Source: Patescibacteria group bacterium (GTDB lineage Bacteria > Patescibacteriota > Patescibacteriia > Magasanikbacterales > GWA2-37-8). From it: a DNA stretch of 64,000 bases. The stretch spans positions 418,560-482,559 of the forward strand of contig JBAZUP010000001.1 in assembly GCA_041661385.1 (NCBI GenBank), read 5' to 3'. Position numbers and translations under genes: made by a program. The notes beneath the pieces are model-generated. The model made no database searches and was not told the origin of the DNA. It saw only the letters and a program-made list of their open reading frames with translations. Below, piece by piece: positions 45,471-63,517 of this stretch. Numbering within the stretch: position 1 is the stretch's first letter; each line of letters starts with the position of its first letter.

Positions 45471-46520
45471 TTATCTGCCGCTAATCTCTGCGTATCCTTC
45501 ATCATCCGGCCAAATATAATTTTCAAAAACCCACTCTGAAATATCTCTGGCTTCGGTAAATCTTTTTTCGTTTGAGGCGGCACCCAAAATCACAGTCCGA
45601 AGGACATGCGATTTTTCGCCGGGAATCCTAACCACAAAATTATAACCAGACTGATCGATGAAGCCGGTTTTTCCGGCAAGAACATCTTTATCAAAATTAT
45701 TTGGAATCCAATTAATTAAAAGCCAGTCCGTGCTCCAAACATGATGTTTAGTTTTATTATTTAGAGGTACGGCAAAGTATTCACCCATTTTCAAAGTTTC
45801 AGAAATTTTATCCACTTTTAATGCCGCCTTCAGCAAACGCAAAACATCTACCGCCTTACCCATATTTCTTTCGTCGAGTCCGGTTGATTCTACAAACTGT
45901 AGTGAATTAAGCCCCAGTGCTTCCGCTTTCTCGTTCATTTTTTTTACAAAATCTTCTTCGTTAAGGCCAGTCACTCGCGCCAGGGCGCGAATCGCGCTGT
46001 TGGACGAACCGATAAGCGCTACTTTCCATAAATCATCTAAAATATATTTTTCTCCTTCATTAAGATGATGGCTGGACGGATCGGTATCATTCTCCGATAT
46101 TATTGTCGAAGAATTCCAATCGAGATTAAGATCATTTAAAACCAAAGCTGACATGAGTTTGGTAATACTCGCAAGCGATCTGACTTCATCAATATTTTTT
46201 TTATACAAAATTGTATTACTTTTATCGTCTACAACAACTACTACTGCGGCGCTAAGATTGCCGGGGTAGACTGCCAGGCTGTTTTTTAATAATGGCGTTG
46301 CCGGTCGGCTAACCGGTAAAACCGGCAGCAGTTCGTCTCCGCCTTTTTTATATGGCTCAGCTTGGGCGACTTGTGTTTGGTCAACAATTTTTTCAACCGG
46401 TTTGGCGGTAATTGTAACGGATCCCAAAAATACCAGACCAACGCCTAGCACCATGACCCCAACTGATGAAAGATAATCCGATAATTTTTTTGATATCACA
46501 TTATTCTTTTTCGGACCCAA
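45471..46520 (-). CDS. Serine-type D-Ala-D-Ala carboxypeptidase (S11, PBP5/DacA-like)
   Basis: SxxK (SITK), SxN (SSNS) and KTG (GKTGF) motifs in the correct order. N-terminal TM/signal segment. Confidence 0.75.
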   Translation of the reverse strand: MGPKKNNVISKKLSDYLSSVGVMVLGVGLVFLGSVTITAKPVEKIVDQTQVAQAEPYKKGGDELLPVLPVSRPATPLLKNSLAVYPGNLSAAVVVVVDDKSNTILYKKNIDEVRSLASITKLMSALVLNDLNLDWNSSTIISENDTDPSSHHLNEGEKYILDDLWKVALIGSSNSAIRALARVTGLNEEDFVKKMNEKAEALGLNSLQFVESTGLDERNMGKAVDVLRLLKAALKVDKISETLKMGEYFAVPLNNKTKHHVWSTDWLLINWIPNNFDKDVLAGKTGFIDQSGYNFVVRIPGEKSHVLRTVILGAASNEKRFTEARDISEWVFENYIWPDDEGYAEISGR

Positions 46521-47061
46521 CCACGATTTGATTTAAAGTATTATTAATAAATTCATGATTGTGCAATGTTTCGTATTCGGGCAGTTCGGCCAAATTTGAA
46601 ACGCCAAGGTGCTGTAAATATTCCATGGTTACCTCGTAGGCCGGTAATAAATTATTTTCCGTTCCGGCTTCTTTGATTAAACCGCGAATTAATAAATTAC
46701 GTAAAATTAGACTGCAGTTCACACCGCGAATCTGCTCAATCTCCGGCTTCGTTAGCGGACCGCAATAAGAAATAACAGTAAGAGTCTCGAGTTGCGGCCG
46801 GGTAAGCTCACCGCTAATTTCTGTTTTAATAAAATGTTCGGCCACCGTGCGATTTTCCGGGTGCGCGACCAATTGAAATTCGCTATTGGTTTGAAACAAA
46901 ACTACTCCCGAAGAATTAGTGTCGTATTTTCCCTGCAATACTTTCAATTCCTTTTCAACCGCATCTTCATCAATCGCTAAAACTTTCGCAATTTTTTTTA
47001 TTGAAAGCGGTTTAGAGGCAACAAATAAAATTGATTCGATTTGAGAAATTAGAGCCGGCAT
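46501..47061 (-). CDS. scpB: Segregation and condensation protein B
   Basis: Tandem winged-helix ScpB family sequence. 186 aa. Directly downstream of scpA. Confidence 0.8.
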   Translation of the reverse strand: MPALISQIESILFVASKPLSIKKIAKVLAIDEDAVEKELKVLQGKYDTNSSGVVLFQTNSEFQLVAHPENRTVAEHFIKTEISGELTRPQLETLTVISYCGPLTKPEIEQIRGVNCSLILRNLLIRGLIKEAGTENNLLPAYEVTMEYLQHLGVSNLAELPEYETLHNHEFINNTLNQIVVGSEKE

Positions 47062-47062
47062 A

Positions 47063-47755
47063 CTAAACTTTATTTATCATCATATCGTTAAAAGAATTTT
47101 TTTGATTCACGGATATTTTTTCTTGCTTCAGTAATTCGAGAAGCGCGAGAAAACTGACGATAACTTCACTGCGGTTGGAATCTGAATTAAAAATATCTTT
47201 GAAACTGAGTTGGTTTAATTTTTTCAGACTTTCGTAAATTGATTTAATTTTTTGTTGTACCGATACGGTATGATCAATTCTAACTTCCGGCAACGGATTA
47301 ATCGGCTTTAATCTTTTTAAAAGCAATACAAAAGAATTTTTTAATTCTACGGCTGTGGCGTTCTGCGGAGCGGTAAACCCGGTTAAGACCGGCGCCGGCT
47401 CAACGCGTCCATATGCCATTTTTCCCTCGCCCCACAATTTTTCCACAAACTTACTGGCATCCGCGTAGCGCTTATAAAATTTCAGCTGCTCACTAAGGCT
47501 TAGCCCTTCTTCTTCGGGCGGGTACAGGTACGGCAAAAGCTGGCGCGATTTTATATAAACCAAACGCGTCGCTATTACCAAGAAATCTGCCAATTCATCG
47601 GACCGATTTTCATCCATTCCGGACAAAAATTGAAAAAACTGGTCCGTTACATCAGATAAAGAAACATCCGTAATGGCAAGTTTTTCATTCTCAATGAGCT
47701 GTAACAACAAATCCAACGGCCCTTCAAATTTTTCCAGCTTGAGTTCCTTGGGCAT
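47063..47755 (-). CDS. scpA: Segregation and condensation protein A (kleisin)
   Basis: LKLEKFEGPLDLLLQLIENEKL N-terminal ScpA signature. 230 aa. Confidence 0.8.
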   Translation of the reverse strand: MPKELKLEKFEGPLDLLLQLIENEKLAITDVSLSDVTDQFFQFLSGMDENRSDELADFLVIATRLVYIKSRQLLPYLYPPEEEGLSLSEQLKFYKRYADASKFVEKLWGEGKMAYGRVEPAPVLTGFTAPQNATAVELKNSFVLLLKRLKPINPLPEVRIDHTVSVQQKIKSIYESLKKLNQLSFKDIFNSDSNRSEVIVSFLALLELLKQEKISVNQKNSFNDMMINKV

Positions 47756-47763
47756 AAACCTCT

Positions 47764-49167
47764 TTATTTTTTCTTCACTTCAATATTTGCATCATCCAAT
47801 GCTTTTTTTGGTACTGCAGAAGGTGCGCCCATCATTAGGTCGCGGGCATCGCCGGTTTTTGGTACCGCGATAACTTCTCTGATATTCGGTTCATTTGCTA
47901 AAATTGCAATTACTCGGTCAATCCCGAGCGCAATACCGCCATGGGGAGGAGCGCCAAAATCAAATGCCTCGAGCATGTGACCAAACTGATCCTGAATCTG
48001 CTCATCCTTGAAACCCATAACCTCAAAAACTTTTTTCAAAGCTCCGGATTGGTGGTTGCGGATGCTTCCCCCGCCGGCCTCGAAACCATTTAAAGCAATA
48101 TCGTATTGGGTAGTTAAAATATCGCCGATATTTTCTTTTTTCATAAGCAACTCCATATGCTCCGGTTTTGGACTTGAAAATGGATTGTGGCTAAAGGTCC
48201 AGCCGCCTTCATCGGTTTTTTCAAAAAATGGAAAATCAACCACCCAACAAAAAGCGAGCAGATCCGGATCATTTTTATCTTTCCGAAGATCCGGTTTGTC
48301 GGATTTATATTTTTCCATCGCTTCCTGATAAGTCAAACGTGGAAAAGGCATTTCTTGAATTTTTTTATGCGGCGTTACTGTCTGAACAAGTTTAATCAGC
48401 ATTTCTTCAATTACCGCCATTACATCTTCGCGTTCAACAAACGACATTTCGAGGTCTAACTGAGTAAATTCCGGCTGCCGATCACCGCGCTGATCTTCAT
48501 CTCTAAAACATCTTGCTACTTGGAAATATCTTTCCATTCCCGCCACCATCATGAGCTGTTTAAACTGCTGAGGCGATTGCGGTAAGACATAAAACTGGCC
48601 TGGATAAGTGCGGGATGGCACCAAAAACTCCCGCGCCCCTTCAGGGGTACCCTTGGTCAAAATTGGCGTTTCAATTTCCAAAAAATTATCCGCCAATAAA
48701 TGCTGGCGCATAAATTGAGTTACTGCGTTGCGCAAAACAATATTTTTTTTCATTCTTTCTGAACGCAAATCTAGATATCGATATTTAAGACGCAGTTCTT
48801 CATTTATACCTTTAGTATCTTTATCTATTTCAAATGGCGGAGTTTGCGCAGTGTTCAAAACTGTTAAAGTCTTAATTAAAATTTCAACCGTGCCGGTTGG
48901 CATCTCGGTATTTTTTTGTTTTTCACCGCGCTCTTGCACCACACCCGTAATCGAAAGCACCCATTCCGGCCTCACCTCTTTTAGAGTTTCAACCGAAACG
49001 GGATCCATTTGACTTGGCACGCCGACGCACTGCAAAATTCCCCCGCGATCGCGCAGATCAAGAAAAACAATTTTACCCATATTTCGACGGGCGTTTATCC
49101 AACCTTTTATGGTTACTTCTGTACCTACCAATTTAGGTGTTTCCACCGACAAAGTTCGTTTTGACAT
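47764..49167 (-). CDS. aspS: Aspartate--tRNA ligase, short (archaeal/non-GAD) type
   Basis: N-terminal OB fold. Class II motifs 1-3, including FRDEDQRGDRQPEFTQLD and a C-terminal GGIALGIDR. 467 aa. Confidence 0.9.
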   Translation of the reverse strand: MSKRTLSVETPKLVGTEVTIKGWINARRNMGKIVFLDLRDRGGILQCVGVPSQMDPVSVETLKEVRPEWVLSITGVVQERGEKQKNTEMPTGTVEILIKTLTVLNTAQTPPFEIDKDTKGINEELRLKYRYLDLRSERMKKNIVLRNAVTQFMRQHLLADNFLEIETPILTKGTPEGAREFLVPSRTYPGQFYVLPQSPQQFKQLMMVAGMERYFQVARCFRDEDQRGDRQPEFTQLDLEMSFVEREDVMAVIEEMLIKLVQTVTPHKKIQEMPFPRLTYQEAMEKYKSDKPDLRKDKNDPDLLAFCWVVDFPFFEKTDEGGWTFSHNPFSSPKPEHMELLMKKENIGDILTTQYDIALNGFEAGGGSIRNHQSGALKKVFEVMGFKDEQIQDQFGHMLEAFDFGAPPHGGIALGIDRVIAILANEPNIREVIAVPKTGDARDLMMGAPSAVPKKALDDANIEVKKK

Positions 49168-49399
49168 ATATAAATAATCACATGAATTGCTGCCCTAGTT
49201 TAACAAACAAACCAAATCTTCGCAACCCCATAACCAAACAAAAAACCGCCCAAGCAACAGAGCGATTTTAATAGTAATTTTTTAGGGAAATGGAAATCAT
49301 TAGACACTATAAAAAAGCCGACTCATATTGTTATTTGATTGACTCGGGCGATATTTTCGCCTCCTCTTCGCTTTTGAAAATAGCGACCGGTATTTGGAA

Positions 49400-52333
49400 T
49401 TACTTACCTATTATTTCCTTCAAACCCCAAAAGGTTGAGCCGCCCTCGTGTATTAACGAATTAATTAAAGAATAAACACCCAACTTTGTTGATTTGTTTT
49501 TGTATAAAAAATCAAGTGTTTTAAACCACTCAGTATCAACATGAAATGGTTTTTTGTTTTTTCTAACCCCACCAATTAATAAGTGGAGGTTGGCGATTAC
49601 TAAGGTGTCATCAGGAGATACTTCTGCCAGTTTATTTATCATCATCGTCAGGCCATAATCCCAATCGAACGTACCACCAATTTTTTCTAACGTTAACCTA
49701 ACGGTTCTTGCAAGCCAAGCAATATCAAAAATCTCTTTTTCGTTTTCCAGCCAATAACCGAACTGGTTCAAGCACTTATTCTTGTTATTTTTTAAAACCC
49801 ACTCCCATATTTCATTTAATCGTTTTACGGCGAATGAATTTTTTTTAAGATGTTCTGTTGCTTGTGTATTCCTACCCGTAATAAACATTCTCCCAATAAA
49901 ACTGATAAAATTAGATTGCTTGTCAGTATTGTCTGCCCAAAATAATTTAAACAAGCGGTGATTAAAATCAAACTCCTCATAATGCATAAAGGCTAAAGCC
50001 ATATGCGTCGAGATACTCTCATCCGGGTCCCTAAAATATCTCCTTCCTTCATCCTTAATATTTAAATTGAGACCCTTCTCATAAAGTTCTTGAAATTTGG
50101 TCTCGAAAAACATTTCCTTATAGAGGTTATTAGATAGATAACCTTCCCACGCAGCTAAATACATGATCTCTTTTCCTATGGCCGATGTAAATACGCTAGG
50201 GATAAGAGCTAGTGCCCAATCTCTTTCCTGATAATATATTGCTGGTAAATAATGACCGAACATGAACATTATCGCTCTCGTTTTTTCATTTATTAAAACA
50301 TTTTCGTAGAGATCCTTTACATCCTTAGAAAGATTACTCTTTTTAGATTTACCAAACTTAACATCCAGTATTACAAAATTTATAAAAGCTTGAAATGCCT
50401 TGCCTCGCACTGAATTAATCGCCGTTGTATAAGGATCACCTATTTCATAATCATTATTACCAGGTGATTTAGTTCTAATTTTTGCGGTTTCGATAATTTC
50501 ATCTTTTGGAGCAGGGTCATTTTGCGAAAGCAAAAATTGGATAATGTAAAAAAAAACATCTCTTAATGCAGAAAAATCGCCGACTAATTCAATATTTCCA
50601 TCCTGTAATAGTACTCTCATTAGATTGGCCGTCGCACTATAAACTGCATTCCAATTTGCAAGCCAACCCCTACGTTTTCTCTCGTCCACTTCAAGAATCT
50701 CTTCAACGGGTCTTTTTGAAATTGCAATGGATAAATTCAGTACATTTAATAGACTTCCTCTGACAAACTTTTTTTCATTAATTAAGGAAGTTATTTTCTG
50801 AATAAATGCGTAGGTATAATGGGGATCAATATATTTGTGGTCGAAAAATAACTGAGCACTGTGAAGAAACTCCTCAGTTCTAACTTCAAATTCCTTCTTT
50901 AAACGCTCAGCCACTCCGTCACCATCAATCGGATGAAGAAAATCACCCTGACCATACTTCTCTACCAGATTCGCCGGAGCCCAATCTGATCTTAATAATT
51001 GAATAATTTCAGGAACAGTCTTAGACCAGTCAGTTTCGTTCCCGGGGGCTTTCGGTACAAGGGTACCGGAAACAATTTCACCTATAGTTGGCTGGGGATT
51101 GTAATTTTCATTTAGTTTTCCGAAGACCTCCTGCGATTTTATTTTCTCGTCTTCGGTAAGAAATGGAAATGCGGACGATAAAATATCACTACCGTGAATA
51201 TTTAGATCTTCTTCAGCTTTAAACCTATCAATTACCTTTGAAACATAAAGACGCTGATCAGCCGAGCTCAAGAATGAAAAACATGCTTGTATAAGCCTTT
51301 CGTATTCTGCGCCAAAAATTAAATCGCCTGGATCTTCGTAATCAAAAATTCGAAATAGCTCATTTCTAATATTAACCTTAAATATTTCTGGACATAATGA
51401 GAAAACATATAATTTGAGTCGCCATACAGTCCTGCTATCTGGGAGAATGTTAATATATTTACCATACATACCCATTACATAATCCTTGTTTGAAATATTT
51501 TTTTCAAAAACTTTTTTTAACAAAATTGTAACTGTTGCGGCAAGTTCTCGAACATCGTCCCTAAAAGAAATATGTTTTTGCCGATGGGAAGTTATAGTAA
51601 AAAAATCGACGTCGTAAAAATGGAATGAATCTTCTATAGAAAAAATTTTTCCTTTCTGCTTACTACCCAACAAAACTATCCTTGCAAAAACGTTAATAAC
51701 AACCGCAAGAGCTTTCTCGAGATAAGATGAGTCAATATTATTTATATAGCCAAATATATCAATGTGAGACAGGTCATTAAGATAAAAAGGATTATCGGAA
51801 AATCCCGGACCCTTATTATTTAGGTCTTCCTTTGTCCGAATTGAAAATATCGCATCAATTAAAATCAACAGATTTTCATTATCACCGGCTTTTGAAAGCG
51901 TTTCAAGCATTTTCTGATATTCAATTCCCCACCTGCTATAATTACCCATTAGAGTAACCCACTTTTCACTATAAATTTTCGGAACTAGTCGCGCTAATTG
52001 GTCTGGTGGTAATTTTTCGGCAATCCAAAGAAATTGATCCACAACCTCAGGATTAAAAGTATCTGGTGATATTGGAATTTGTAAAACTAAATCTACTACT
52101 TTTTCTGGTACTTTTTGCGCCATACGAACCAGATAATTAAGTTCTGGCATTCTGTACGAATATACTGATAAATTTTCTGCCTTACTTTTAATAGGATCCA
52201 TGAACCCATTTTCCCACAGCCAATCAAGCCAGCGTTCATCGGCTTGAGAATAAAAATATTGGTGAGAATCAAAATTCAGATCTATAATATCCTTAACCTT
52301 TTTTAGATCTAAATTTGATGGGTTAGAAGTCAT
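49400..52333 (-). CDS. Large hypothetical protein (977 aa), predominantly alpha-helical, no recognised domain
   Basis: Long uninterrupted ORF with no Walker, HExxH, nuclease or other catalytic signature that I can see. Noticeably more AT-rich than the flanking housekeeping genes. Forms a pair with the upstream 187-aa gene, separated by a 5-nt gap. Confidence 0.5.
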   Translation of the reverse strand: MTSNPSNLDLKKVKDIIDLNFDSHQYFYSQADERWLDWLWENGFMDPIKSKAENLSVYSYRMPELNYLVRMAQKVPEKVVDLVLQIPISPDTFNPEVVDQFLWIAEKLPPDQLARLVPKIYSEKWVTLMGNYSRWGIEYQKMLETLSKAGDNENLLILIDAIFSIRTKEDLNNKGPGFSDNPFYLNDLSHIDIFGYINNIDSSYLEKALAVVINVFARIVLLGSKQKGKIFSIEDSFHFYDVDFFTITSHRQKHISFRDDVRELAATVTILLKKVFEKNISNKDYVMGMYGKYINILPDSRTVWRLKLYVFSLCPEIFKVNIRNELFRIFDYEDPGDLIFGAEYERLIQACFSFLSSADQRLYVSKVIDRFKAEEDLNIHGSDILSSAFPFLTEDEKIKSQEVFGKLNENYNPQPTIGEIVSGTLVPKAPGNETDWSKTVPEIIQLLRSDWAPANLVEKYGQGDFLHPIDGDGVAERLKKEFEVRTEEFLHSAQLFFDHKYIDPHYTYAFIQKITSLINEKKFVRGSLLNVLNLSIAISKRPVEEILEVDERKRRGWLANWNAVYSATANLMRVLLQDGNIELVGDFSALRDVFFYIIQFLLSQNDPAPKDEIIETAKIRTKSPGNNDYEIGDPYTTAINSVRGKAFQAFINFVILDVKFGKSKKSNLSKDVKDLYENVLINEKTRAIMFMFGHYLPAIYYQERDWALALIPSVFTSAIGKEIMYLAAWEGYLSNNLYKEMFFETKFQELYEKGLNLNIKDEGRRYFRDPDESISTHMALAFMHYEEFDFNHRLFKLFWADNTDKQSNFISFIGRMFITGRNTQATEHLKKNSFAVKRLNEIWEWVLKNNKNKCLNQFGYWLENEKEIFDIAWLARTVRLTLEKIGGTFDWDYGLTMMINKLAEVSPDDTLVIANLHLLIGGVRKNKKPFHVDTEWFKTLDFLYKNKSTKLGVYSLINSLIHEGGSTFWGLKEIIGK

Positions 52334-52338
52334 ATTTT

Positions 52339-52902
52339 TTAACTATTTGTTGAAGTATCAACTTTAGCAGTTTCGGGCACATTTTTTAAAATGCGATCAA
52401 TTTCTAGATGGATATCAATCTGATGCGTTAAAGCGCTAAGCATTACATTTTCAAAATCTGAAACTAAGTTTTCGAAGTCTTTCTCACTAAATGAAGCATA
52501 ATCAGTGTTGTTTTTTTCCACATTTCCATGATGTGCAAGACCGTTTAATTTCCCATATATAATACCCATATCCCGAATGGTTATGGGAGTCGCGTGAACT
52601 GATCCAAATTTCTTTAGAGCCTCTGCTTTATTTGTTGGGATATCCTCCACATTAGGACTATAAAATGGATACAGAATTTCACGAAGAGAGTTTGCGGCCT
52701 GTGCCATCCAATCCGGATTGGCTTTTAAATTTTTTTGTGACACAAAAAAAGCACCCCTGAGCATATCAGAAGGCTTTGTTTTCAACCTGTATAAATCATG
52801 GAGATCATCTAACCGTCTACACAGGTCTTCTTGCTTGGGACTTAAAGCTACAGGCGATAAATCAAATTCGCCTACAGCTTTCGGCAGCTCTGAATTAACC
52901 AT
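52339..52902 (-). CDS. Hypothetical protein (187 aa) co-oriented with and directly upstream of the 977-aa gene
   Basis: ORF with no recognised motif. Tight operonic spacing. Confidence 0.45.
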   Translation of the reverse strand: MVNSELPKAVGEFDLSPVALSPKQEDLCRRLDDLHDLYRLKTKPSDMLRGAFFVSQKNLKANPDWMAQAANSLREILYPFYSPNVEDIPTNKAEALKKFGSVHATPITIRDMGIIYGKLNGLAHHGNVEKNNTDYASFSEKDFENLVSDFENVMLSALTHQIDIHLEIDRILKNVPETAKVDTSTNS

Positions 52903-53117
52903 AAATTAACATTGTCATGAACCAAGCTTACACCTTTGTCTGCAATAAATAAAGACTTCCGATGTGCTCAGACTACATATGATCTGGCTAATTCAGACCT
53001 ATTAAATTTGCACTAAGACAGTGCACGCTATAGGTTTTGCGAAGCTTAGTTATCTACAGGTCCAAACATATAAAAAACAAACCACTTTTGAGAGGCCTGT
53101 TAAATTAATAATGTTTC

Positions 53118-53285
53118 TTAACCCACGATCTCATTAATTGATTGATCAACAATAATTTGCGGATTCTCTTTTATCAAATCGAATATGAATTGTTTTAAAG
53201 TTTCCTTTTTGAACGTCAACGCAATAATTTTTAGATAATTCGTCTTTCCATCATCTTCATATACAAGTATCAACGATTTATACAT
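53118..53285 (-). CDS. Possible small protein (55 aa) downstream of the 92-aa membrane protein gene
   Basis: Manual ORF MYKSLILVYEDDGKTNYLKIIALTFKKETLKQFIFDLIKENPQIIVDQSINEIVG. No homology known to me. Could be spurious. Confidence 0.2.
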   Translation of the reverse strand: MYKSLILVYEDDGKTNYLKIIALTFKKETLKQFIFDLIKENPQIIVDQSINEIVG

Positions 53286-53293
53286 TCCACCAA

Positions 53294-53572
53294 TTAAACC
53301 TTTTTGTATTTTACTATTTTTTTTATTTCCACGATTCTTCTTATTACAAACAAATGGACATATTTAACTCCATTATTTTCTATAATTAGATATGCCCCTT
53401 TTGTTAAAGCTAGGATATATGCAACTGCAAAACCAAACATCAGCAGAGAAAATCCTAGGGCATCTCTAACTCCATTTGTATTTGTGATTACCGAAATGTT
53501 AATCACCCAGAACAACAAAAGAACAATAATTGTTATTTTTATTTCATTAGTCAGACTCGACTTATATTTCAT
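53294..53572 (-). CDS. Small three-TM membrane protein (immunity-like cassette member)
   Basis: 92 aa, strongly hydrophobic. Located in the array downstream of the RHS toxin genes. Confidence 0.35.
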   Translation of the reverse strand: MKYKSSLTNEIKITIIVLLLFWVINISVITNTNGVRDALGFSLLMFGFAVAYILALTKGAYLIIENNGVKYVHLFVIRRIVEIKKIVKYKKV

Positions 53573-53589
53573 AATGGGTTTTGTACAGC

Positions 53590-54399
53590 TTATTGTTTCT
53601 GTACAGAATTTCTAGCAACTTCAACAAGATATGCTTTATAACCTAAGCTCCAATAAGCCAACAGCCAAATAAATCCTGTTAAACCAAACCAGCCGGCCAC
53701 AAACATTATCACAATTTTATCTAAGGTCAACAGAATGCCAGTTAGAATTATAAATATTTTATTTCCGCGATAAATTACTACTCCTAGAATAAAGTAAATA
53801 ATCAATGAAACCACTAAAAAAAGAGTTATGGGCGTTTTTAACAAAGCAACATAACCTACGGTTATAATAACGGACAAAAATATCACCATAGCACTTTGTT
53901 TTCGATATGATTTCCAAACAGACAAAGAATTGTAATTTTTTATTTGGAACTCCTTTTCTTCTTGTGACATTTTGAATGTCCCGGATTTAATCGGGCTTTG
54001 TTCACTTCCTACCTGGTTAAATCTGCCTTTAAGATGTTTATGGAAGAAAATCCAAACAATCAGAATAAGCATTAACTCGAATATATTAAAAGAAATATAT
54101 CCATTGTGACCAGCAAAAAAGTTCGCCAGGGTGTCAAAAACAATTACCAAAACAGAATAACCAAAAACAATATTTGTCCAAATTAATATCTTTTCAACCA
54201 TTTTTACCAGCTTATAAAGATAAAAACCTGATATAATTAAATCTATTGTATGCACGACCCCAGCAGCAACATTTGTAAGAACATTTCCATAGAAATCTGC
54301 ACCTCTCATCAAACCCGATATACCAAGAAGATCAATAAGAATATTCAAACCCAATAGAACTAAGATAAACCAGATAAATGTAGATTTTTTTTTATTCAT
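53590..54399 (-). CDS. Multi-pass membrane protein (269 aa), candidate immunity protein for the orphan RHS toxin
   Basis: About six TM helices. Immediately downstream of the orphan RHS-CT cassette and the 80-aa protein. Confidence 0.4.
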   Translation of the reverse strand: MNKKKSTFIWFILVLLGLNILIDLLGISGLMRGADFYGNVLTNVAAGVVHTIDLIISGFYLYKLVKMVEKILIWTNIVFGYSVLVIVFDTLANFFAGHNGYISFNIFELMLILIVWIFFHKHLKGRFNQVGSEQSPIKSGTFKMSQEEKEFQIKNYNSLSVWKSYRKQSAMVIFLSVIITVGYVALLKTPITLFLVVSLIIYFILGVVIYRGNKIFIILTGILLTLDKIVIMFVAGWFGLTGFIWLLAYWSLGYKAYLVEVARNSVQKQ

Positions 54400-54403
54400 A
54401 AAA

Positions 54404-54646
54404 TTAGCTTCTTGTTTGTATATAGGTTGCTATTAAAGTAAGCACAATGATGAACACTCCAATAAACATTATTATCCATTTGGTAATCCTGTCTTTATCC
54501 GAGCTGTCCAACCCACCCACGGAACCAGCGCCAAATGGGCCGAACCACCACGCTACTTTTTTAGCTACCTTAATTACACTTTCAAGCTGCGATGCGAAAA
54601 TGATTAAAACACCTAGTGCAAGGACTGAAAGATTTATAAGCTTCAT
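54404..54646 (-). CDS. Small two-TM membrane protein (80 aa), candidate immunity protein
   Basis: Overlaps the stop of the orphan RHS-CT ORF by 4 nt (translational coupling). Hydrophobic. Confidence 0.4.
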   Translation of the reverse strand: MKLINLSVLALGVLIIFASQLESVIKVAKKVAWWFGPFGAGSVGGLDSSDKDRITKWIIMFIGVFIIVLTLIATYIQTRS

Positions 54647-55683
54647 AATTTGGTCTTTTTTGGACTTACAATTTTTGACTCAACATGATCAATTATGCTT
54701 TTTCCAGTGGTAAGCTGACTAGCCTTATCCAGAGTATTATAAATTATCTTACCAGTTTTTTCAGTGAGATATTTAAGAGTTGATTGACCCACTCCAGCAG
54801 ATTTAGCGTTCCGATATATTTTATATGCAGGCGATACTTTGGAAACATACGTGGGAACGTCTTTTGCAGAGAAGAACAATAGATCCCCTCCTGTTGCAGC
54901 AGAATCAAACAACGTATTATCTTTCAAAATTGAATTCGAGAACTCGCGATATGGTCCCTGCGTGTTTGAACGAGATGGTTCCCGATCCATGAAGGAACCA
55001 ACAATGTTTTCAGCTGCATTTGATGAATCGGCAAATGCACTATCTAAGTTGCCTAAAGATCCTGCTGTTAGCAAGGCGGCTGCCTGAGGCTGTCCTACGG
55101 CTAATGCTCCCCCAGCGAAGATTGCTTGTGGTACGGCTGCAAGTCCGTCTAAGACGGTTTTTCCAACTTGAAGCGCTCCCACACCAAATGTTTTTGCAGC
55201 GAACTCACCCGCTTCATCAACGTAATTCAAGGGGTTGTTTAGAGCATAGGAATAGCTATTCATATGCTGGGGGTTAGAGAGATAACTTTGTAGATCCATT
55301 TTTGTATACCTTCTAATCTGATCAGAGTCTCCAACTGCCAGAAATGCTGGATCCTGGGATAGGAGCTGACATCTCGAACCATCCTGATATCGAGCTCCCA
55401 TATAGTTCAAACCGGTATCCATGTCGTACTCATGTCCAGTAAATTTCTTTGGTTCGTTTAACCCGTTTGTCTGTTCATCAATCCGTATACCACCATATGG
55501 ATAGTAATCTGTCAACTCCGCAATGGTCCCGGTCACTGTGGTCATAATATTTGACCCACCTAAGTGGTCAGTATGAACGTTATATACACTAGAACTAGCA
55601 TTAGACCCTTTTACCGTAGCGACAAGCGTATCACCAAGATAAAATTGCTTCATGGTTGTTGTGCCACTGACCGTGTATGCCAT
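54643..55683 (-). CDS. Orphan RHS repeat-associated core domain plus alternative C-terminal toxin domain (displaced rhs-CT cassette)
   Basis: HTDHLGGSNIMTTVTG...DYYPYGGIRIDE...NYMGARYQDGSRCQLLSQDP...NSYSYALNNPLNYVDEAGEF is the canonical RHS core (xxHxDHLGS...YYPFG...ARYYDP...R..S.DP...N.Y.Y..NNP...D). It is followed by a ~190-aa unrelated C-terminal region with a Gly/Ala-rich stretch (FGVGALQVGK...AIFAGGALAVG). Confidence 0.7.
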   Translation of the reverse strand: MAYTVSGTTTMKQFYLGDTLVATVKGSNASSSVYNVHTDHLGGSNIMTTVTGTIAELTDYYPYGGIRIDEQTNGLNEPKKFTGHEYDMDTGLNYMGARYQDGSRCQLLSQDPAFLAVGDSDQIRRYTKMDLQSYLSNPQHMNSYSYALNNPLNYVDEAGEFAAKTFGVGALQVGKTVLDGLAAVPQAIFAGGALAVGQPQAAALLTAGSLGNLDSAFADSSNAAENIVGSFMDREPSRSNTQGPYREFSNSILKDNTLFDSAATGGDLLFFSAKDVPTYVSKVSPAYKIYRNAKSAGVGQSTLKYLTEKTGKIIYNTLDKASQLTTGKSIIDHVESKIVSPKKTKL

Positions 55684-55696
55684 AGCTCGAATAATA

Positions 55697-56044
55697 CTAG
55701 TCGATCAACCACCCAAGATAATAAAACTGAACAAATATCATTATTACCTGCATTAAAAACAATAATGACCCGACTAATGCTGACTTAATTTTATTATATT
55801 GCCTAAGCTCATTTACGGTTAATATAATATTTACTCCAACTAAAATCAAAAGTGGATAATAAATTATGAAATTTTCTATTTGGCTACGCCAAGGCCCGTG
55901 ATTAATGCCATTTGCATACCAAACTGATTCGGGTGGTAGAAATATATAATACGATTCAAACCAATATATTATAAATGGTAAAAGCCATGCGACTAAAGTT
56001 AAGATATATAAAATTAAATCTTGCCGCTTAAATTTGGTTAGCAT
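55697..56044 (-). CDS. Membrane protein (115 aa), candidate cognate immunity protein of the main RHS toxin
   Basis: Starts 2 nt after the stop of the giant RHS gene. Three TM helices with periplasm-facing loops. Confidence 0.45.
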   Translation of the reverse strand: MLTKFKRQDLILYILTLVAWLLPFIIYWFESYYIFLPPESVWYANGINHGPWRSQIENFIIYYPLLILVGVNIILTVNELRQYNKIKSALVGSLLFLMQVIMIFVQFYYLGWLID

Positions 56045-56045
56045 A

Positions 56046-59000
56046 TTATTTCTTAGTTGCTTTTATAATAGATTTGATTATCGACACGGCATTCTTAATA
56101 TCCGTAACAATATTTCTGTTATAATTTGGGTTATTTAATTGTGCTTGTACCCTCTGCCCATAAGATGTGACGCCTTTGGCTGGGCTATAGTTATATCTAC
56201 TCGCAGTGAGTGCCGTACTATCGGACCGACCTTGCTCTTTTGCAATATTACGAACTCCGGCATCGATGTTTTTTGCTGGATCGCGAGCTAGCTCTGCTTT
56301 GTTATAACCATATTCTTTTCCGATCTTGCCACTTACCTGCATTACCCCAACACCGCCACTACCAACATTTGGAAATAACTGCTCACGACCAAGTACTTCA
56401 TCCGGCTGTAAGTGCGATTGCTCTTCGTACATAATCGCATTAGTAAGATTGGAACTAACTCCATATTTAGTACTTGCATCATTAACAGTTGTTTGATTTT
56501 GCTGAATTGCTTCCAACGCGCGCTCATGACCACCAAAAACTTCTCCAGTTTTCATCATAAACCCACTAACACCAGAATACCCGCTCCAGTCGTAAAATCC
56601 ATACCACCAAAATCTACCATCTGGATCTTTATTTACAACTGGATTATTACCGGCATATGCATACGCATTCATAGCTTGCGGATTTAATAGTGCATCTTTA
56701 CCATCCGAAGTTAGTCCGATTTCCCCAAATACTGGATCTTGTGACACAAACTGCCCGCGTGCTGAATCATAATATCTCGCATTAAGATATGACAAACTAT
56801 TATCATCTGTAAACTGACCGATAAATTTGCGCTTATCGCTAGCAGTACCGGCATTTATTCGCTCGGCACCGTATGGATAATAATCGACCGCCTGAATAAT
56901 ATTTGCACCTGAATCCGTAATAATATTTGTGCTTCCAAGTTGGTCGGAATGAACAAAATGTGTTGAAGATACACTACCGTTTTTCTCAACTGTTGCCAAG
57001 AGATCACTACCAACGAATATATATTTTGTGGATGTGTTTCCTACTATACTGTAGTATCTATTGGAATATGTTGTGGTTGTTCCACCCGTTCCAAGTTTAC
57101 GATACATCACCCTGTTACCGTCTTGGTCATACAGGTAGGTTGAAGTAACCCTGTTTGCAGTGGATGTTGCGAGTTGATTGCGATAGTCCCAAGTATACAG
57201 TATGCTCGCCGAAGACGATGTCATGTTGCCATTCTTGTCATAGCTAAATGTTGTTGTGCCGACAGCTGTTACCGCATCCGGATTGGCATAACTAGAACCC
57301 TGGTAACCCAAATAGCTATAATCCCCAACGTCACTGCGATTAGTGATATTTCCTAGTGCATCATAAGCATAGGTTTGAGTGTAATCACCACTTTTTACAG
57401 CATCGGTGACTTTAGCCGAGAGCAAACGGTTCAAATTATCATAGCTGTAGATATTAAGCTTGCTGGTACTGGTTGAAGAATTATCTAAAATTTGAGTAAT
57501 GTTACCAACCTTGTCGTAAGCGTAACTCAAGTTCTGTATAGCATTGCCTGGTGCATAGAAATAATCACGGCCATTGGTCCAAGCCCCCTCATTACCAAGG
57601 TTATCCCAGAATTTGATACGCCAGAAGTATTTCATGCCATTATTTGGAATTGCTGGGCCAGCATAGGCAATATTTGGTGTTCTTGCACCGACAGCAATGC
57701 TAGGAGAAAGTGTTTGTGAGCCAGAATCCCAGAGTGGCGCGGAGAAATCGGCCCCGCTTTGAGTAACTTGTATTCTATAATTAGTCGCTGAGGTGGAAGT
57801 GTTAGCTGATTCATACAGCGCGCTGAATTGTGGGGTAGAAGTAATCTTGGTCGCCTGCTTTGGCCAGAAATGAACATTATCAAACCAGATTGTATTCGTT
57901 GACGAACCTAAATAGAACATCAAACGAACATTTGAATCACCCTGTGATGGCGTAATTTCAAATTGGTAAGTCTTCCATGCTGGATTTAACAGGAATGTGT
58001 TATACGAAAGATCTGAATATGCATCATGGTTCTGGTTAATTGCGACCGCTTCAGTGGTACTAACGGTTCCTTTGGCATCAAAGGATAAAATATAGGTCGT
58101 TGAAGTCGCGACTGCAGTATTTTGCGCAAGTTGCACCTGCCAGGCTTGCCCACCATAATTAACTATTGTTTTATTTGAGCAGCCGCCATCGGTTGTACTG
58201 GTAGTACAATCAACTGAATTTGTTGACTGGCCTGTGCCACCGTTTGACCAAGCATACCAATTGTTCATGCTCGTTTCAAAACTTTGGTTCTTGATCATAT
58301 TCAAGCCGTCTGGAATAACTTCCACGTCATCAAACCAAATGGTACTGGTGCTAGCACCTAGATAATAGAATACCCGTGCCAGTTCATCTGTACCATTACT
58401 GGTGAATGAATATGTATATTGCTTCCAATTTGGTGTAATACTGACACCAGTTGCAAGGCCATAATCCGACCAGGGGCTATGGTCTTGATTAATACCAAAG
58501 GTAATCGTTGTAGTAGCGTTGGCTTTGGCCCTAAACTTCACAGTGTAATTCATTCCATTATCTACGCGTAAATCTTGCCAGAGCTGTGAATCCCAAACAT
58601 TGCCGCCAGTCGGTACAGTGACCTGTTGTGAACAATTACCAGTATATGAAGCAGTGCAATCAAGTGTGGCAGTGCCTGTTGCAGACCAATACTTCCAAAC
58701 GCTAAGCAATGCTCCCTCAAAACTATCATCATAAATTATGCTTTGAGTAATAGCCAGACCGTTTACAGTCATATTCCGTGGAGCAGTCGGACCACCAGCT
58801 ACACCCGAAGAAGAAGTATTGATTAGATAATATGCACCCGGCATTAGTCCCTCACCATAGTAACCAACGCTGCTGGTTGGCAACGACGTATTTTTGTTAA
58901 TGAGACGATAGAGCCGATTCGCATCATATGTAAATGTAGTTGTGACTCCAGATGGATATGTGATTTGTGCAGTCTGACCGAGGGGTGAATAAATAATATT

Positions 59001-62000
59001 GCTTACCAGTGTCTTGAAACTACCGTCACTGTTTTCCTTGTAATTCACTGCCTGCGGTCGGTTCGCTGAATTATACACATACTGCACTTGTGAGTTATCC
59101 GGGTAGGTGATGTTGGTGTTATTTCCTAGTCGATCATAACTGTATTGAGTTACATAATTAACATTATTTATCTTCTTCGTTTCTTGCTTCAAATGTCCAT
59201 TACCGTCATAAACATTATTAACAATCGCGCCAGTTGAAGTGACCGAACAGAATTTACCAACACCATAAGTGCACCTATCATAACCATAAGTAACTTCAGT
59301 ACCGCTCTTGCCGGTATAATCTTCTGTTAATACTCGATTTAACTTGTCGTAAGTATAATTAACGGTTTGCTTATTTGGATCAACTTTTTGAGTTAGGTTG
59401 CCATTATTATCATAAACAAAAGTTGAGGTACCAAAAGTAGTATCACCTGAAGAGTGTAGATCTTCCACACCAACACGTCTACCAAGACCATCATAAGCAA
59501 AACTACGGACATTACTCAATGAATCTGTGACGCTGATCAAATTTCCAAGTCCGTTGTATGTGTAATTTGTGGTATAGGTGCTACCGTTATTTATTTCCTC
59601 AACTTTAACTAAATTGTCGTAGGCATCTTTATATAGATTCTTACTATTTCCATTAGCATCAGTTGCGGTCAGTTTCCAACGGTCATAAGAGTTGGTGGAA
59701 GTTCCAACCGAATCAATTGTTACAACAAGACGTAGCAGAGGATCATATAAATATGTTTTATATAATGACTGAGTGGTTGTCGCAGTTGTTGAAGCTGAAC
59801 CAGATGAGAAATACGGTAGAGATTCTTTTTCAATCGGACCACGCGATCCATATACGAAATCGGTGACTGAGTAATTACCCGAATCATCAACTCTTTGTCG
59901 TTTCTGAATTGTTCGGTCTAATCCATCGGTATACGCATAACTATCGGTAGTGGTTGCGTTATTTAAATAATCAGTTTGCTTAATTTGCCAACCAATTGAT
60001 TGTGGCGTGTACAAATATTCTGTTGATGTAACCAAGGTTGATGTGGTAGTGAGATCTGGTTTTAAAATCGCAACTACCCTATCTAAACCGTCAAATACTG
60101 TCTGATACTTAAGGTTATTTTGGTCGATTACCTGTTTAGGTTTACCATTTGAATAGTCATAAGACTTTATAACCTTGTAAGACAACGCATCGGTTGTGGT
60201 TGTTGGGTAAAGGTTATAGCTGTCATAGTTGTAGGTCGTTGTATTGCCCAAAGCATCGATATCACTGGTTACAAGGCCATAAGAATTGTATATTTTTTGA
60301 TTATTTATATAAGTCGTGCTGGTTTGCCATGATTCCTGCTTGGTCATATTTCCTTTTAAAACTACGCCGATGGTCGAGGTGTCATAATAATATCTGTCCT
60401 GTTTTACTTTAAGAGTGTTATAGTCGGAAACTAAAACTGATGACGGTAAACCAAGAATGTATGAGCTGGTATTAATTGCAAAGGTGTAATCAGTCGTGTA
60501 CGAATCTGTTCCCGTATCACTAAATGTGCCATCGTCATTCCCACTTACCTCGCCCCAATCTATTTGTTGCAACAAATTTCCGGTGCTGGTCGTGTTATAT
60601 GTGAAACTTTGAGCTTTATCTTTATGGGAAGCATTACCATCATATGTATAATCGACACTTTGCGTTTCAAAAACAAATCGCGAACTAGTACTTAAAACAG
60701 CTTCATCCCATTTATTAATATTTTTTGTAAAAAGACTTCCGTTTATATCGTATGTTTCGACACGATATGGCTTGTTGATTTTATAATAGCTATCATTATA
60801 TTCCCCATGCGATGAGTCGCTTGTATCACCCTGGTGATAATAGGTGCTTACATAATTCCCAAAACTGTCCGTCTTGGTAACTTTGTTAAATCCAGCAAAT
60901 TTACGATCTAAAGTGTTACCATAATATAATTTTCCACCTTCATATTTGAACGAGGATGAGTTAGTTGTACCCAAACCATCAAGGTTCCGAATTTGTAAAA
61001 CCGTATTTAAAACCATTGGCAAATTTGGGTTAGCTAAGTTTGAGCCAGTTCTATAAAAAGTAGTGGCCTGATAATCGACCAGGGTTATCCCGCCTGAGCT
61101 ATGTTTTACAGAAATCAATAAATCAGATGCTCTTTTGGTATTATTTAAATAAACATAATTTTGAATATAATCCTGTCTATACGCATTCCAACCATTTTTT
61201 AAAATATCTGGCAATCCATCTCCATTAATATCCATTATTCTTACACCTAGATCGTAAGTAGAGTTTGCAAAATTTTGCGGAGAACTCCACGAATTATCTG
61301 ATTGAAAACCAGTTCCAGTGTTTATATAACCACCGTTTTCCGGATTATCACTAGTATTATAATTAATTAATCCCCGGACTATAATGTCGTCAAGTCCATC
61401 ACCATTAATATCAGAAATTCTCGCACCGTAATCGACAGATTGATCCCATGGACCCATTGGATTATATATTTTAACCGGCTGACTAATAGAACTATCGCAC
61501 ACCCAACCGTGGCCATTGTTTAAACAAATACTTTTTTGATAACCTCCAGATGTATTGGTGCCTTGAATAATATCAACCAAACCATCACCATTTACATCGC
61601 CAAAAACGGTACCGTTGTCAATTACTGGAAGTGACCACTGTGGATCTGGAGAAACAAACAAACTACCATTATTTATGGCTACATAAGCAACCCAATGAAT
61701 AGAATCCGAACGGTATATATCAAGCAGACCATCCCCGTTTAAATCTACAAATCTAGTACCCAGGTCCCAACTATTATTTACCATATCGACAACCGGAAAC
61801 GAACCAGGAGGAGAAAAATTACTATCTATTGGTCCAAAATTTGTACCAGTGTTTGAGAAAGCCCATGAAGTTGGGGTTTGCTGAGCAATCCAAGACCCTA
61901 TGATATCGCTTAGTCCGTCACCATTATAATCAGCCACTCTTGATCCCATGTCGAAATTTGAAACACCAGAAGCATCATAAAATGCTCTAAACGAACCAAA

Positions 62001-63398: not shown

Positions 63399-63492
63399 AT
63401 ATTTAATAAATTTTCTTGTTCTAGATGAACAAATAACTGACCATAATATATACCCTTTTAAAACAACCTTGCAACTTAGGCTGTGGATAACA

Positions 63493-63517
63493 AAAAACCG
63501 CCCCAAAAGGCGGTTTT
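63493..63517 (-). terminator. Terminator of the upstream 145-aa gene
   Basis: Minus-strand hairpin aaccgcc-tttt-ggggcggtt followed by a U-run. Confidence 0.55.

What the first reader, a model, noticed from the sequence alone, without database searches (positions are those of the whole stretch)
49400..52902. AT-rich two-gene module (187 aa + 977 aa) of unknown function wedged between aspS and the RHS locus
Both proteins lack any motif I can recognise (no P-loop, nuclease, protease, methyltransferase or HEPN-type signatures). They are tightly coupled, and the block is visibly more AT-rich than the adjacent housekeeping genes, suggesting horizontal acquisition. The location next to a toxin/immunity island makes a defence, anti-toxin or effector-chaperone role plausible. 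It may be a genuinely undescribed system.
Basis: seen in the sequence. Interest (0 to 1): 0.65.

Follow-up and report, generated by a model that had tools for sequence, protein, structure and literature searches.

The report
Split effector plus HEAT-solenoid defence-island module
The two genes are the split form of one widespread but uncharacterised protein, a small helical "predicted nuclease-like" domain plus a 1,000-residue HEAT-like solenoid. It moves between bacteria, sits at the ends of restriction-modification operons and prophages, and is most likely an undescribed anti-phage module in CPR bacteria, which rarely have CRISPR.

Summary
Two tightly coupled minus-strand genes (52902-52339, 187 aa; 52333-49400, 977 aa) hit no Pfam, NCBIfam, PADLOC, PHROGs or PDB entry.

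- **One functional unit.** About a quarter of homologues fuse the small protein to the N-terminus of the large one.
- **Folds.** The large protein is an all-helical HEAT/ARM-like solenoid. The small one is a helical bundle with an invariant polar constellation, remotely related to Pfam pP_pnuc_1 ("predicted pPIWI-associating nuclease").
- **Distribution.** The family has at least 2,651 clusters at 50% identity. It is patchy across Patescibacteria, Nitrospirales, Caldilineaceae, Omnitrophota and others, and absent from 80 aspS-syntenic relatives.
- **Context.** In 33 of 67 loci it lies next to restriction-modification genes (Type IIG with an HKD-Snf2 helicase, Type III, or DpnII-type Type II), often as the last genes of that operon. 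It also recurs at prophage ends.
- **Swappable partner.** On solenoids 81-86% identical, the upstream partner can instead be a CHAT protease or a membrane-anchored protein.

Best reading: a constant sensor/scaffold plus a swappable effector, DSR2-like in logic. No other locus has an RHS gene among the genes adjacent to the pair, so a link to the neighbouring RHS locus is unsupported. The function is inferred, not shown.

The parts
52339..52902 (-). Small gene (187 aa): helical-bundle partner or effector-like domain. Conserved motifs are NPDW-AQAANSLREILYPF (res 62-80), LAHHG (res 122-126) and QIDIH-EID (res 161-169).
   Evidence: ORF. 60 homologues, with invariant C28 D32 S45 G50 N62 D64 Q68 A70 S72 R74 Y78 G100 H124 H125 F150 D163 H165. 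AF2 model pLDDT 85, 8 helices. Aligns to the N-terminus of fused homologues, E=7e-32. Family-level weak link to PF18165 pP_pnuc_1.
49400..52333 (-). Large gene (977 aa): all-alpha HEAT/ARM-like solenoid, the constant component of the module.
   Evidence: ORF. AF2 pLDDT 86.6, 56 helices and no strands. Foldseek PDB top hits are CAND1, SF3B1 and karyopherins, E~1e-5, prob 1.0. 2,651 clusters at 50% identity. Conservation is uniform, highest at residues 31-120 and 631-780.
52334..52338 (-). 5-nt spacer between the stop codon of the small gene and the ATG of the large gene, with a frame change. This marks the natural split point of the fused architecture.
   Evidence: Sequence read. In 48 split loci the gap is mostly -4 to +6 nt.
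49242..49269 (-). Terminator-like hairpin plus T-run, 131 nt downstream of the large gene and before aspS.
   Evidence: Consensus scan only. Four such sites were found in the region against 3.3 expected, so this is weak evidence.
52903..53293 (-). 391-nt AT-rich intergenic region upstream of the small gene. Presumed promoter region of the two-gene unit; it may hold a 55-aa ORF.
   Evidence: Sequence. Only weak promoter-like matches, at chance level. No Rfam family. No flanking direct repeats suggestive of att sites.

Best explanation
The two genes encode the split form of a single modular conflict (anti-phage or anti-mobile-element) protein.

The 977-aa product is a HEAT-like alpha-solenoid that serves as the constant sensor/scaffold. 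The 187-aa product is a small helical domain with an invariant N/D/Q/S/R/Y...HH...D-H polar constellation. It is distantly related to the Pfam 'predicted pPIWI-associating nuclease' domain, and it is the effector or effector-adaptor that docks on the solenoid.

Proposed mechanism (inferred):
1. The solenoid holds the partner inactive.
2. It binds a conserved invader-derived ligand, or senses a perturbation of the co-encoded restriction-modification machinery.
3. The effector is released and attacks nucleic acid. In variants where the partner is replaced, the attack is proteolysis (CHAT) or membrane damage (TM partner).

Shown here: gene unity, fold classes, mobility, restriction-modification and prophage linkage, and partner swapping. 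Inferred: the defence role, nuclease chemistry, trigger and outcome.

In this window the module is a stand-alone copy inserted upstream of aspS, with its own terminator-like signal downstream. It is unrelated to the neighbouring RHS locus.
For: 1. **Gene fusion ties the two genes together.** The small protein aligns to residues 1-~190 of 1,150-1,216-aa homologues of the large one (E=2e-18 and 7e-32). 16 of 67 non-redundant loci are fused and 48 are split, with gaps mostly of -4 to +6 nt.
2. **Folds.** The large protein is an all-alpha solenoid, with Foldseek prob 1.0 to CAND1, SF3B1 and importins. The small protein is a confident helical bundle with 17 invariant residues, mostly polar.
3. **Remote link to a predicted nuclease domain.** Homologue P0317, which has the small domain duplicated in tandem, hits PF18165 pP_pnuc_1 at 26.6 bits (gathering threshold 26.3, E=5e-6) on the NPD..AQAA.S.REIL motif. 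10 of 52 small-protein homologues hit the same family weakly; no other family exceeds 3.
4. **The partner is swapped on a near-constant solenoid.**
   - CHAT protease partner (PF12770, 31.4 bits) in L037, against a helical type-B partner in L040: the large proteins are 86% identical.
   - TM-anchored partner in L011, against type A in L002: 81% identical.
   - The two CHAT-linked solenoids are only 43% identical to each other.
   - An FRG domain is fused to the small domain in L047.
   - The type-B partner is homologous to type A (hhalign 97.5%, E=8e-12).
5. **Context.** The module lies immediately downstream, on the same strand and often overlapping, of one of these:
   - Type IIG MmeI-like enzymes (13-14 loci; PADLOC REase_MTase_IIG E=2.6e-268), six of them with an HKD-Snf2 helicase;
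   - Type III Mod+Res (5 loci);
   - N6_N4 methyltransferase plus DpnII (4 loci);
   - a Type ISP-like methyltransferase (1 locus).
   RM-like genes lie within -6/+5 kb in 33/67 loci against 1/79 aspS-anchored control loci (Fisher p=6e-13).
6. **Mobility.**
   - Serine recombinases lie within about 10 kb in 14/67 loci.
   - Several loci carry a recurring integrase, terminase and methyltransferase prophage-end block.
   - There are 4 IMG/VR loci.
   - Distribution across at least 8 phyla is patchy.
   - The pair is absent from all 80 aspS relatives despite conserved aspS-scpA-scpB-dac synteny.
   - In L057 and L035 the module sits near the same housekeeping cluster but at different insertion points.
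7. **Precedent for the architecture.** DSR2 is an N-terminal Sir2 effector plus a C-terminal HEAT-repeat sensor that binds the phage tail-tube protein (PMC11263360).
Against: - There is no experimental evidence for any family member.
- The window's own small protein does not hit PF18165 even at E<=10. PF18165 is itself only a predicted nuclease.
- The small domain has no significant structural neighbour in the PDB or BFVD (best E 0.5 and 0.13). Recurring HEPN-toxin hits have TM<=0.32, and the Rx4-6H motif is absent.
- The large protein is uniformly and strongly conserved (40-49% identity across phyla, no hypervariable region). That is atypical of sensors that bind fast-evolving phage proteins.
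- The window copy has no restriction-modification gene, integrase or att-like repeat next to it.
- The GC deviation is modest.
- The restriction-modification enrichment used profiles built from the pair loci themselves, plus naive ORF calling, so the numerator is partly circular.
- The type-C (TM) partner shows no significant homology to the small protein. 'Effector swapping' could therefore partly be adaptor swapping.
Confidence: 0.55

Rival explanations
1. A dependent accessory subunit of restriction-modification systems rather than an autonomous defence. The solenoid (with its small partner) would bind the Type IIG, Type III or Type II enzyme, or DNA, and modulate targeting, processivity or regulation. 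Stand-alone copies such as the window's would work with enzymes encoded elsewhere, or be remnants.
For: The module has terminal-gene, same-strand, overlapping arrangements with four different restriction-modification classes. Uniform strong conservation of the solenoid fits a conserved cellular or DNA ligand. HEAT-like repeats can bind DNA (established for AlkD and condensin HEAT subunits; own knowledge).
Against: 34 of 67 loci, including the window, have no RM-like gene within -6/+5 kb. One accessory serving four mechanistically different restriction-modification classes is unusual. Replacing the partner with a CHAT protease or a TM protein looks like effector logic, not regulation of restriction-modification.
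Confidence: 0.17
2. Cargo that serves the mobile element or prophage rather than the host: an addiction (toxin-antitoxin-like) module, a superinfection-exclusion function, or a counter-defence.
For: The module recurs next to serine recombinases, integrases and a terminase and methyltransferase prophage-end block, and occurs in IMG/VR contigs. A small, potentially toxic partner plus a large neutralising partner resembles fused or split toxin-antitoxin systems such as CapRel (own knowledge).
Against: It is absent from 50,697 sequenced phages and 72,556 plasmids and from PHROGs. Many copies are chromosomal with no mobile-element genes nearby, including the window. Prophage-borne exclusion genes are in practice defence genes, so this overlaps with the best explanation.
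Confidence: 0.12
3. Functionally tied to the neighbouring RHS polymorphic-toxin locus, as an immunity protein, an effector chaperone or an anti-toxin.
For: Only physical proximity in this window, about 3.1 kb from the 2,486-aa RHS gene.
Against: None of the 66 other non-redundant loci has an RHS or YD-repeat gene among the genes adjacent to the pair. The pair is separated from the RHS gene by separate small membrane ORFs that are better immunity candidates. A 977-aa solenoid is far larger than known RHS immunity proteins (own knowledge).
Confidence: 0.02
4. A housekeeping or structural scaffold protein of CPR cells that merely lacks annotation.
For: High sequence conservation. A HEAT-like fold is common in scaffolds.
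Against: It is found in only 73 loci among 185,579 species-representative genomes by the pattern scan (a lower bound). It is absent from all 80 aspS-syntenic relatives. Its neighbourhoods are variable. One metagenome-assembled genome has two copies with different partners.
Confidence: 0.03

Closest known systems
DSR2 (defence-associated sirtuin 2)
   Same: About 1,000 residues. An N-terminal effector domain is followed by a long helical, HEAT-repeat region that acts as the sensor: it binds a phage protein and releases effector activity (PMC11263360). The fused homologues here have the same layout, an effector-like N-domain plus about 1,000 aa of solenoid.
   Different: The effector here is not Sir2. 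It is a roughly 180-aa helical domain of unknown chemistry. There is no sequence similarity: a profile search against all PDB sequences found nothing, and DSR2 was not among the top 50 Foldseek hits. Here the effector is usually a separate gene and can be exchanged. The solenoid is not hypervariable.
Pfam PF18165 pP_pnuc_1 (predicted pPIWI-associating nuclease)
   Same: It shares the N-terminal helical motif (…NPD..AQAA.S.REIL…). One homologue passes the Pfam gathering threshold, and 10 of 52 give weak hits.
   Different: The window protein itself does not match. No PIWI or Argonaute gene appeared among the Pfam families found for the immediate flanking genes. Nuclease activity of PF18165 is itself only predicted.
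PrrC-EcoprrI (a latent anticodon nuclease embedded in a restriction-modification operon) - from own knowledge
   Same: An effector gene is embedded in or appended to a restriction-modification operon, suggesting a back-up or guard layer that fires when restriction is countered. Half of the loci here have that linkage.
   Different: PrrC has an ABC-ATPase N-domain and a HEPN-type nuclease, and is tied to Type Ic systems. Here there is no NTPase, the linkage is to Type IIG, III and II systems, and the window copy has no adjacent restriction-modification genes.
HKD-Snf2 helicase plus N6-methyltransferase systems (PADLOC candidate C3a139 'HKD+Snf2'; DISARM DrmD/DrmMI; 'Type-2 BR' systems of PMC12839542)
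   Same: In six loci the pair or fusion is the 3' end of an operon made of an HKD-Snf2 helicase and an MmeI-like methyltransferase. These two components resemble the helicase-nuclease and methyltransferase of those systems.
   Different: Those systems have a DUF499 or BrxC ATPase, or DrmA/DrmB, as the third component. Here that position is taken by the small-plus-solenoid pair. The window lacks the helicase and methyltransferase altogether.

Membership tests
Pfam PF18165 pP_pnuc_1 | HMM match at or above the gathering score (26.3 bits) | tested here: not met
   The window small protein has no hit at E<=10. Homologue P0317 scores 26.6 bits, P0209 16.5 bits, and 10 of 52 family members hit weakly (best E 0.0019). 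This makes it a remote relative, not a member by Pfam's criterion.
Pfam PF18165 pP_pnuc_1 | Genomic association with prokaryotic PIWI/Argonaute genes | tested here: not met
   The top 25 Pfam families hitting the 124 immediate flanking genes include no Piwi or PAZ family. None of the recurrent neighbour clusters that were annotated is an Argonaute. Only immediate flanks were scanned with Pfam.
HEPN superfamily | Rx4-6H catalytic motif at the start of the last core helix | tested here: not met
   The invariant Arg (R74) and His (H124, H125) are 50 residues apart on different helices. The 'LNxLAHHG' motif has Leu where the HEPN Arg would be.
HEPN superfamily | Four-helix up-down HEPN fold with significant structural similarity | tested here: inconclusive
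HEAT/ARM-type alpha-solenoid fold | Stacked antiparallel helical hairpins forming a superhelix, with structural similarity to known HEAT proteins | tested here: met
   The AF2 model is all-alpha with 56 helices. 109 PDB matches have E<=1e-3; the top ones are CAND1, SF3B1, Kap121, RanBP5 and transportin, with prob 1.0. TM-scores are low (0.15-0.27), as expected for flexible solenoids. No Pfam HEAT model hits.
DSR2 | N-terminal Sir2 NADase domain | tested here: not met
   No Sir2 or any other Pfam or PADLOC hit in either protein.
Any system in PADLOC-DB v2.0.0 (known and candidate defence systems) | HMM match of either protein | tested here: not met
   0 families at E<=1 for both proteins.
Defence-island gene (operational criterion) | Homologues preferentially located next to known defence genes, in variable contexts | tested here: met
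   RM-like genes lie within -6/+5 kb in 33/67 loci against 1/79 controls. Among the immediate flanks, 11 are Type IIG, 5 ResIII, 4 N6_N4 methyltransferase, 3 Mrr, 2 DpnII and 2 Vsr. Caveat: the profiles were derived from these same loci, and no genome-wide background was computed.
RHS/polymorphic-toxin immunity or chaperone | Conserved adjacency to RHS or other toxin genes across genomes | tested here: not met
   No recurrent RHS neighbour in the other 66 loci.
Type II toxin-antitoxin pair | Toxicity of one component, neutralised by the other | not testable with these tools
   This needs expression experiments. The existence of fused forms is compatible with CapRel-like fused toxin-antitoxin systems but proves nothing.

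The most novel reading that the evidence does not exclude
The module is a 'guard' layer for restriction-modification systems. The highly conserved solenoid would monitor a conserved feature shared by Type IIG, III and II enzymes, or the anti-restriction factors that attack them. When restriction is neutralised it would unleash an exchangeable effector: a helical nuclease-like domain, a CHAT protease or a membrane protein. This would be a PrrC-like strategy, generalised and modular, serving as a major second line of immunity in CRISPR-poor CPR bacteria and their prophages.
Probability: 0.15. Interest if true: 0.8.

Novelty: new variant of a known kind. Interest (0 to 1): 0.62.

Why it matters

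This family is large: at least 2,651 clusters at 50% identity, 578 of them at E<=1e-30. It is unannotated everywhere and absent from Pfam and PADLOC. Yet it shows the classic signatures of an immune module: horizontal mobility, linkage to restriction-modification operons and prophage ends, gene fusion and fission, and effector swapping on a constant scaffold.

If validated, it would add three things:
- a new effector domain, with possibly testable chemistry for the orphan pP_pnuc_1 fold;
- an NTPase-free HEAT-solenoid sensor;
- a possible mechanistic link between restriction-modification systems and a back-up effector layer.

Tried and rejected
- **Direct family scans** of both proteins (Pfam, NCBIfam, PADLOC, PHROGs) found nothing.
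- **PDB sequence searches**, single and profile, found nothing.
- **Foldseek on the small model** against the PDB and BFVD gave no significant match.
- **HEPN assignment** was considered because of 'LNxLAHHG' and the weak HEPN fold hits. It was rejected as a membership claim because there is no Rx4-6H motif and the scores are insignificant.
- **HD-domain and DinB-like metal-site ideas** were considered from the HH/DxH motifs. They were dropped because no structural or profile support emerged.
- **Annotated phage and plasmid collections** gave no match.
- **att-like direct repeats or tRNA targets** flanking the pair in the window: none convincing.
- **Rfam** in 48.8-54 kb: nothing.
- **The 2014 review that defined pP_pnuc_1** could not be retrieved, so the family's original description is cited only through the Pfam name.
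- **Type-C (TM) partner homology to the small protein:** hhalign is not significant (25%).
- **The RHS connection** was rejected on comparative context.
Full report
**Observation.** The window carries two minus-strand ORFs exactly as described: 52902-52339 (187 aa) and 52333-49400 (977 aa). The stop of the first and the ATG of the second are 5 nt apart, in different frames. A terminator-like hairpin follows the large gene, before aspS.

GC is 0.376 for the small gene and 0.348 for the large one, against 0.39-0.43 in aspS, scpA, scpB and dac. Measured against 44 window genes (mean 0.399, sd 0.035), this is only z = -0.7 and -1.5. The AT-richness is real but a weak argument for horizontal transfer. 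The still more AT-rich stretch at 53.0-54.5 kb belongs to small membrane ORFs next to the RHS locus.

Neither protein matches Pfam, NCBIfam, PADLOC or PHROGs. Neither matches any PDB sequence, even as a profile.

**The two genes are one unit.** The large protein has hundreds of full-length homologues at 39-49% identity, all 'hypothetical'. An exhaustive profile search finds 2,651 clusters at 50% identity with E<=1e-3, and 578 with E<=1e-30. Many homologues are about 190 residues longer.

The small protein aligns to that N-terminal extension (E=2e-18 and 7e-32). In 67 non-redundant loci gathered from genomes and metagenomes, the census is:
- 16 carry the fusion.
- 32 carry a split canonical (type A) partner.
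- 7 carry a divergent but homologous 'type B' partner (hhalign 97.5%, E=8e-12).
- 7 carry a partner with an N-terminal transmembrane helix.
- 2 carry a CHAT protease.
- 3 are unresolved.

Gaps between partner and solenoid gene are mostly -4 to +6 nt.

**What the proteins look like.**
- *Large protein.* AlphaFold2 on a 50-sequence alignment gives a confident all-helical model: pLDDT 86.6, 56 helices, no sheets. Its PDB neighbours are CAND1, SF3B1, karyopherins, ATR and FANCI (E~1e-5, probability 1.0). It is therefore a HEAT/ARM-like solenoid with no recognisable catalytic domain.
- *Conservation of the large protein.* It is high and even along the chain, with peaks at residues 31-120 and 631-780 and no hypervariable segment.
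- *Small protein.* It folds as a helical bundle (pLDDT 85). Seventeen residues are invariant, mostly polar: N62, D64, Q68, S72, R74, Y78, H124, H125, D163, H165 and others. That looks like an active or ligand site.
- *Structural neighbours of the small protein.* There is no significant one. Weak HEPN-toxin hits recur, but at E>=0.5 and TM<=0.32, and the HEPN Rx4-6H motif is absent.
- *Sequence lead for the small protein.* The only one is Pfam PF18165 pP_pnuc_1, 'predicted pPIWI-associating nuclease'. A homologue with a tandem-duplicated small domain passes the gathering threshold (26.6 against 26.3 bits). Ten of 52 family members give weak hits, and no other family exceeds three. The window protein itself does not hit.

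**Partner swapping.** The upstream or N-terminal module is exchangeable while the solenoid stays nearly constant.
- L037 (CHAT partner, PF12770, 31.4 bits) and L040 (type-B helical partner) come from the same metagenome-assembled genome. Their solenoids are 86% identical.
- L011 (TM partner) and L002 (type A) are 81% identical.
- The two CHAT-linked solenoids share only 43% identity, so CHAT was recruited twice.
- In Caldilineaceae an FRG domain is fused in front of the small domain.

This pattern of a constant repeat scaffold plus variable effector-type modules is typical of prokaryotic conflict systems.

**Genomic context.** The neighbourhood differs in almost every locus, but one theme recurs. 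The module is the last gene, or last genes, on the same strand and often overlapping, of a restriction-modification operon. The operon types are:
- MmeI-like Type IIG enzymes (13-14 loci; PADLOC REase_MTase_IIG, E=2.6e-268). Six of these are preceded by an HKD(PLD)-Snf2 helicase, whose best PADLOC hits are candidate 'HKD+Snf2' at 4.5e-43 and DrmD at 1.7e-34.
- Type III Mod+Res (5 loci).
- N6_N4 methyltransferase plus DpnII (4 loci).
- A Type ISP-like methyltransferase (1 locus).

Using profiles of these neighbour families, RM-like genes lie within -6/+5 kb in 33 of 67 loci. The figure is 1 of 79 for control loci anchored on aspS in related CPR metagenomes (Fisher p=6e-13). The numerator is partly circular because the profiles came from these same loci.

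Large serine recombinases occur within 10 kb in 14 of 67 loci. In several loci and in IMG/VR contigs, the island abuts a conserved block of integrase, terminase and methyltransferase, which is a prophage end. Sequenced phages and plasmids have no homologue.

**Distribution.** Hits span many Patescibacteria classes plus Auribacterota, Omnitrophota, Acidobacteriota (Angelobacter), Nitrospirales, Caldilineaceae, Poribacteria and Aminicenantia. That is 73 loci in 185,579 species genomes by a pattern scan, a lower bound.

None of 80 metagenomic loci carrying aspS relatives (54-73% identity) has the pair, although many conserve aspS-scpA-scpB-dac synteny. Two other CPR genomes (L057, L035) carry a version of the module near the same housekeeping cluster. 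They do so at different insertion points and with different partner types.

In the window itself there is no restriction-modification gene, recombinase, tRNA target or att-like repeat beside the pair. No other locus pairs the module with RHS genes, so a link to the adjacent RHS island is not supported.

**Mechanism.** Most likely (about 0.55), this is a modular defence or conflict element. The solenoid acts as sensor/scaffold and the small domain as a latent effector, presumably nucleolytic. In design it parallels DSR2, where an N-terminal Sir2 effector is controlled by a C-terminal HEAT-repeat sensor that binds a phage tail-tube protein (PMC11263360).

Two features differ from that paradigm and shape the alternatives. 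The solenoid is not hypervariable, and the module is appended to four classes of restriction-modification system. Both fit recognition of a conserved ligand. They also fit a PrrC-like 'guard' of restriction, or a dependent accessory role for restriction-modification (rival, about 0.17). An element-serving addiction or exclusion role (about 0.12) overlaps with defence. RHS-related and housekeeping roles are essentially excluded.

**Status of the claims.**
- Shown here: gene reality and unity, fold classes, family size, mobility, restriction-modification and prophage linkage, and partner exchange.
- Inferred: the defence function, nuclease chemistry, the trigger and the outcome.

**Novelty.** The family is unannotated, absent from Pfam and from PADLOC 2.0.0, and I found no description of it in the searchable literature. 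The design principle (effector plus repeat sensor) is known. I therefore rate it a new variant of a known kind, of above-average interest because CPR bacteria rarely encode CRISPR-Cas and how they resist phage is an open question (PMC6509639).

Noticed in passing
window 53294-54646 (-), 55697-56044 (-), 54643-55683 (-): Between the pair and the 2,486-aa RHS gene lie three small predicted membrane ORFs (92, 269 and 80 aa; GC about 0.30). There is also an orphan RHS C-terminal module (346 aa) and a 115-aa membrane ORF directly after the RHS gene. None has a Pfam hit. Together they look like an RHS toxin/immunity array with an orphan toxin-tip cassette.
   Followed up: partly
window 56046-63506 (-): The C-terminus of the 2,486-aa RHS protein, after the DPxG…RHS core end, contains an SLT/lysozyme-like 'GVGVMQVSG' stretch. 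This suggests a peptidoglycan-degrading toxin tip in a CPR bacterium. It was read from the translation only.
   Followed up: no
L083 717-5997 and 17442-21476; L086 18780-22403; L072 237-2869; also L018, L043, L050, L051, L077: A recurring block is shared at 45-80% identity between different Patescibacteria metagenome-assembled genomes. It consists of a large serine recombinase, a terminase large subunit (Terminase_6C), an HTH small-terminase-like protein and an N6_N4 methyltransferase. It appears to be a widespread CPR prophage end that carries defence cargo.
   Followed up: partly
L037 and L040 (same MAG, DATDXL01 Paceibacterota SMAG_U8138): One genome carries two copies of the solenoid gene, 86% identical. 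One copy has a CHAT-protease partner. The other has a helical type-B partner downstream of an MmeI-like enzyme.
   Followed up: partly
L047 8849-9973; L056 8849-9955; L044 5594-8800: In Caldilineaceae an FRG domain (PF08867) is fused N-terminally to the small domain in L047. L056 has a similarly extended 368-aa partner that was not scanned against Pfam. In L044 a 1,069-aa FRG plus 22-TPR protein lies beside the pair.
   Followed up: partly
L034 3075-4118: Here the ORF directly upstream of the solenoid gene encodes a 348-aa protein with no Pfam hit. Its N-terminus (…DDSGGDKGNDGY…LFQIYCPRK…) resembles a PD-(D/E)xK nuclease motif by eye. It may be a further partner type.
   Followed up: partly
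window ~53120-53287 (-): A possible 55-aa ORF (MYKSLILVYEDDGKTNYLKIIALTFKKE…) lies in the 391-nt intergenic region upstream of the small gene.
   Followed up: no
L057 42-17251 versus window 45471-49167: In Parcubacteria GW2011_GWC1_36_108 a whole island is inserted between scpA and scpB of the otherwise conserved aspS-scpA-scpB-dac cluster. The island holds Fic, a methyltransferase, DpnII and the fused module. This housekeeping cluster seems to be a recurrent integration neighbourhood in CPR genomes.
   Followed up: partly
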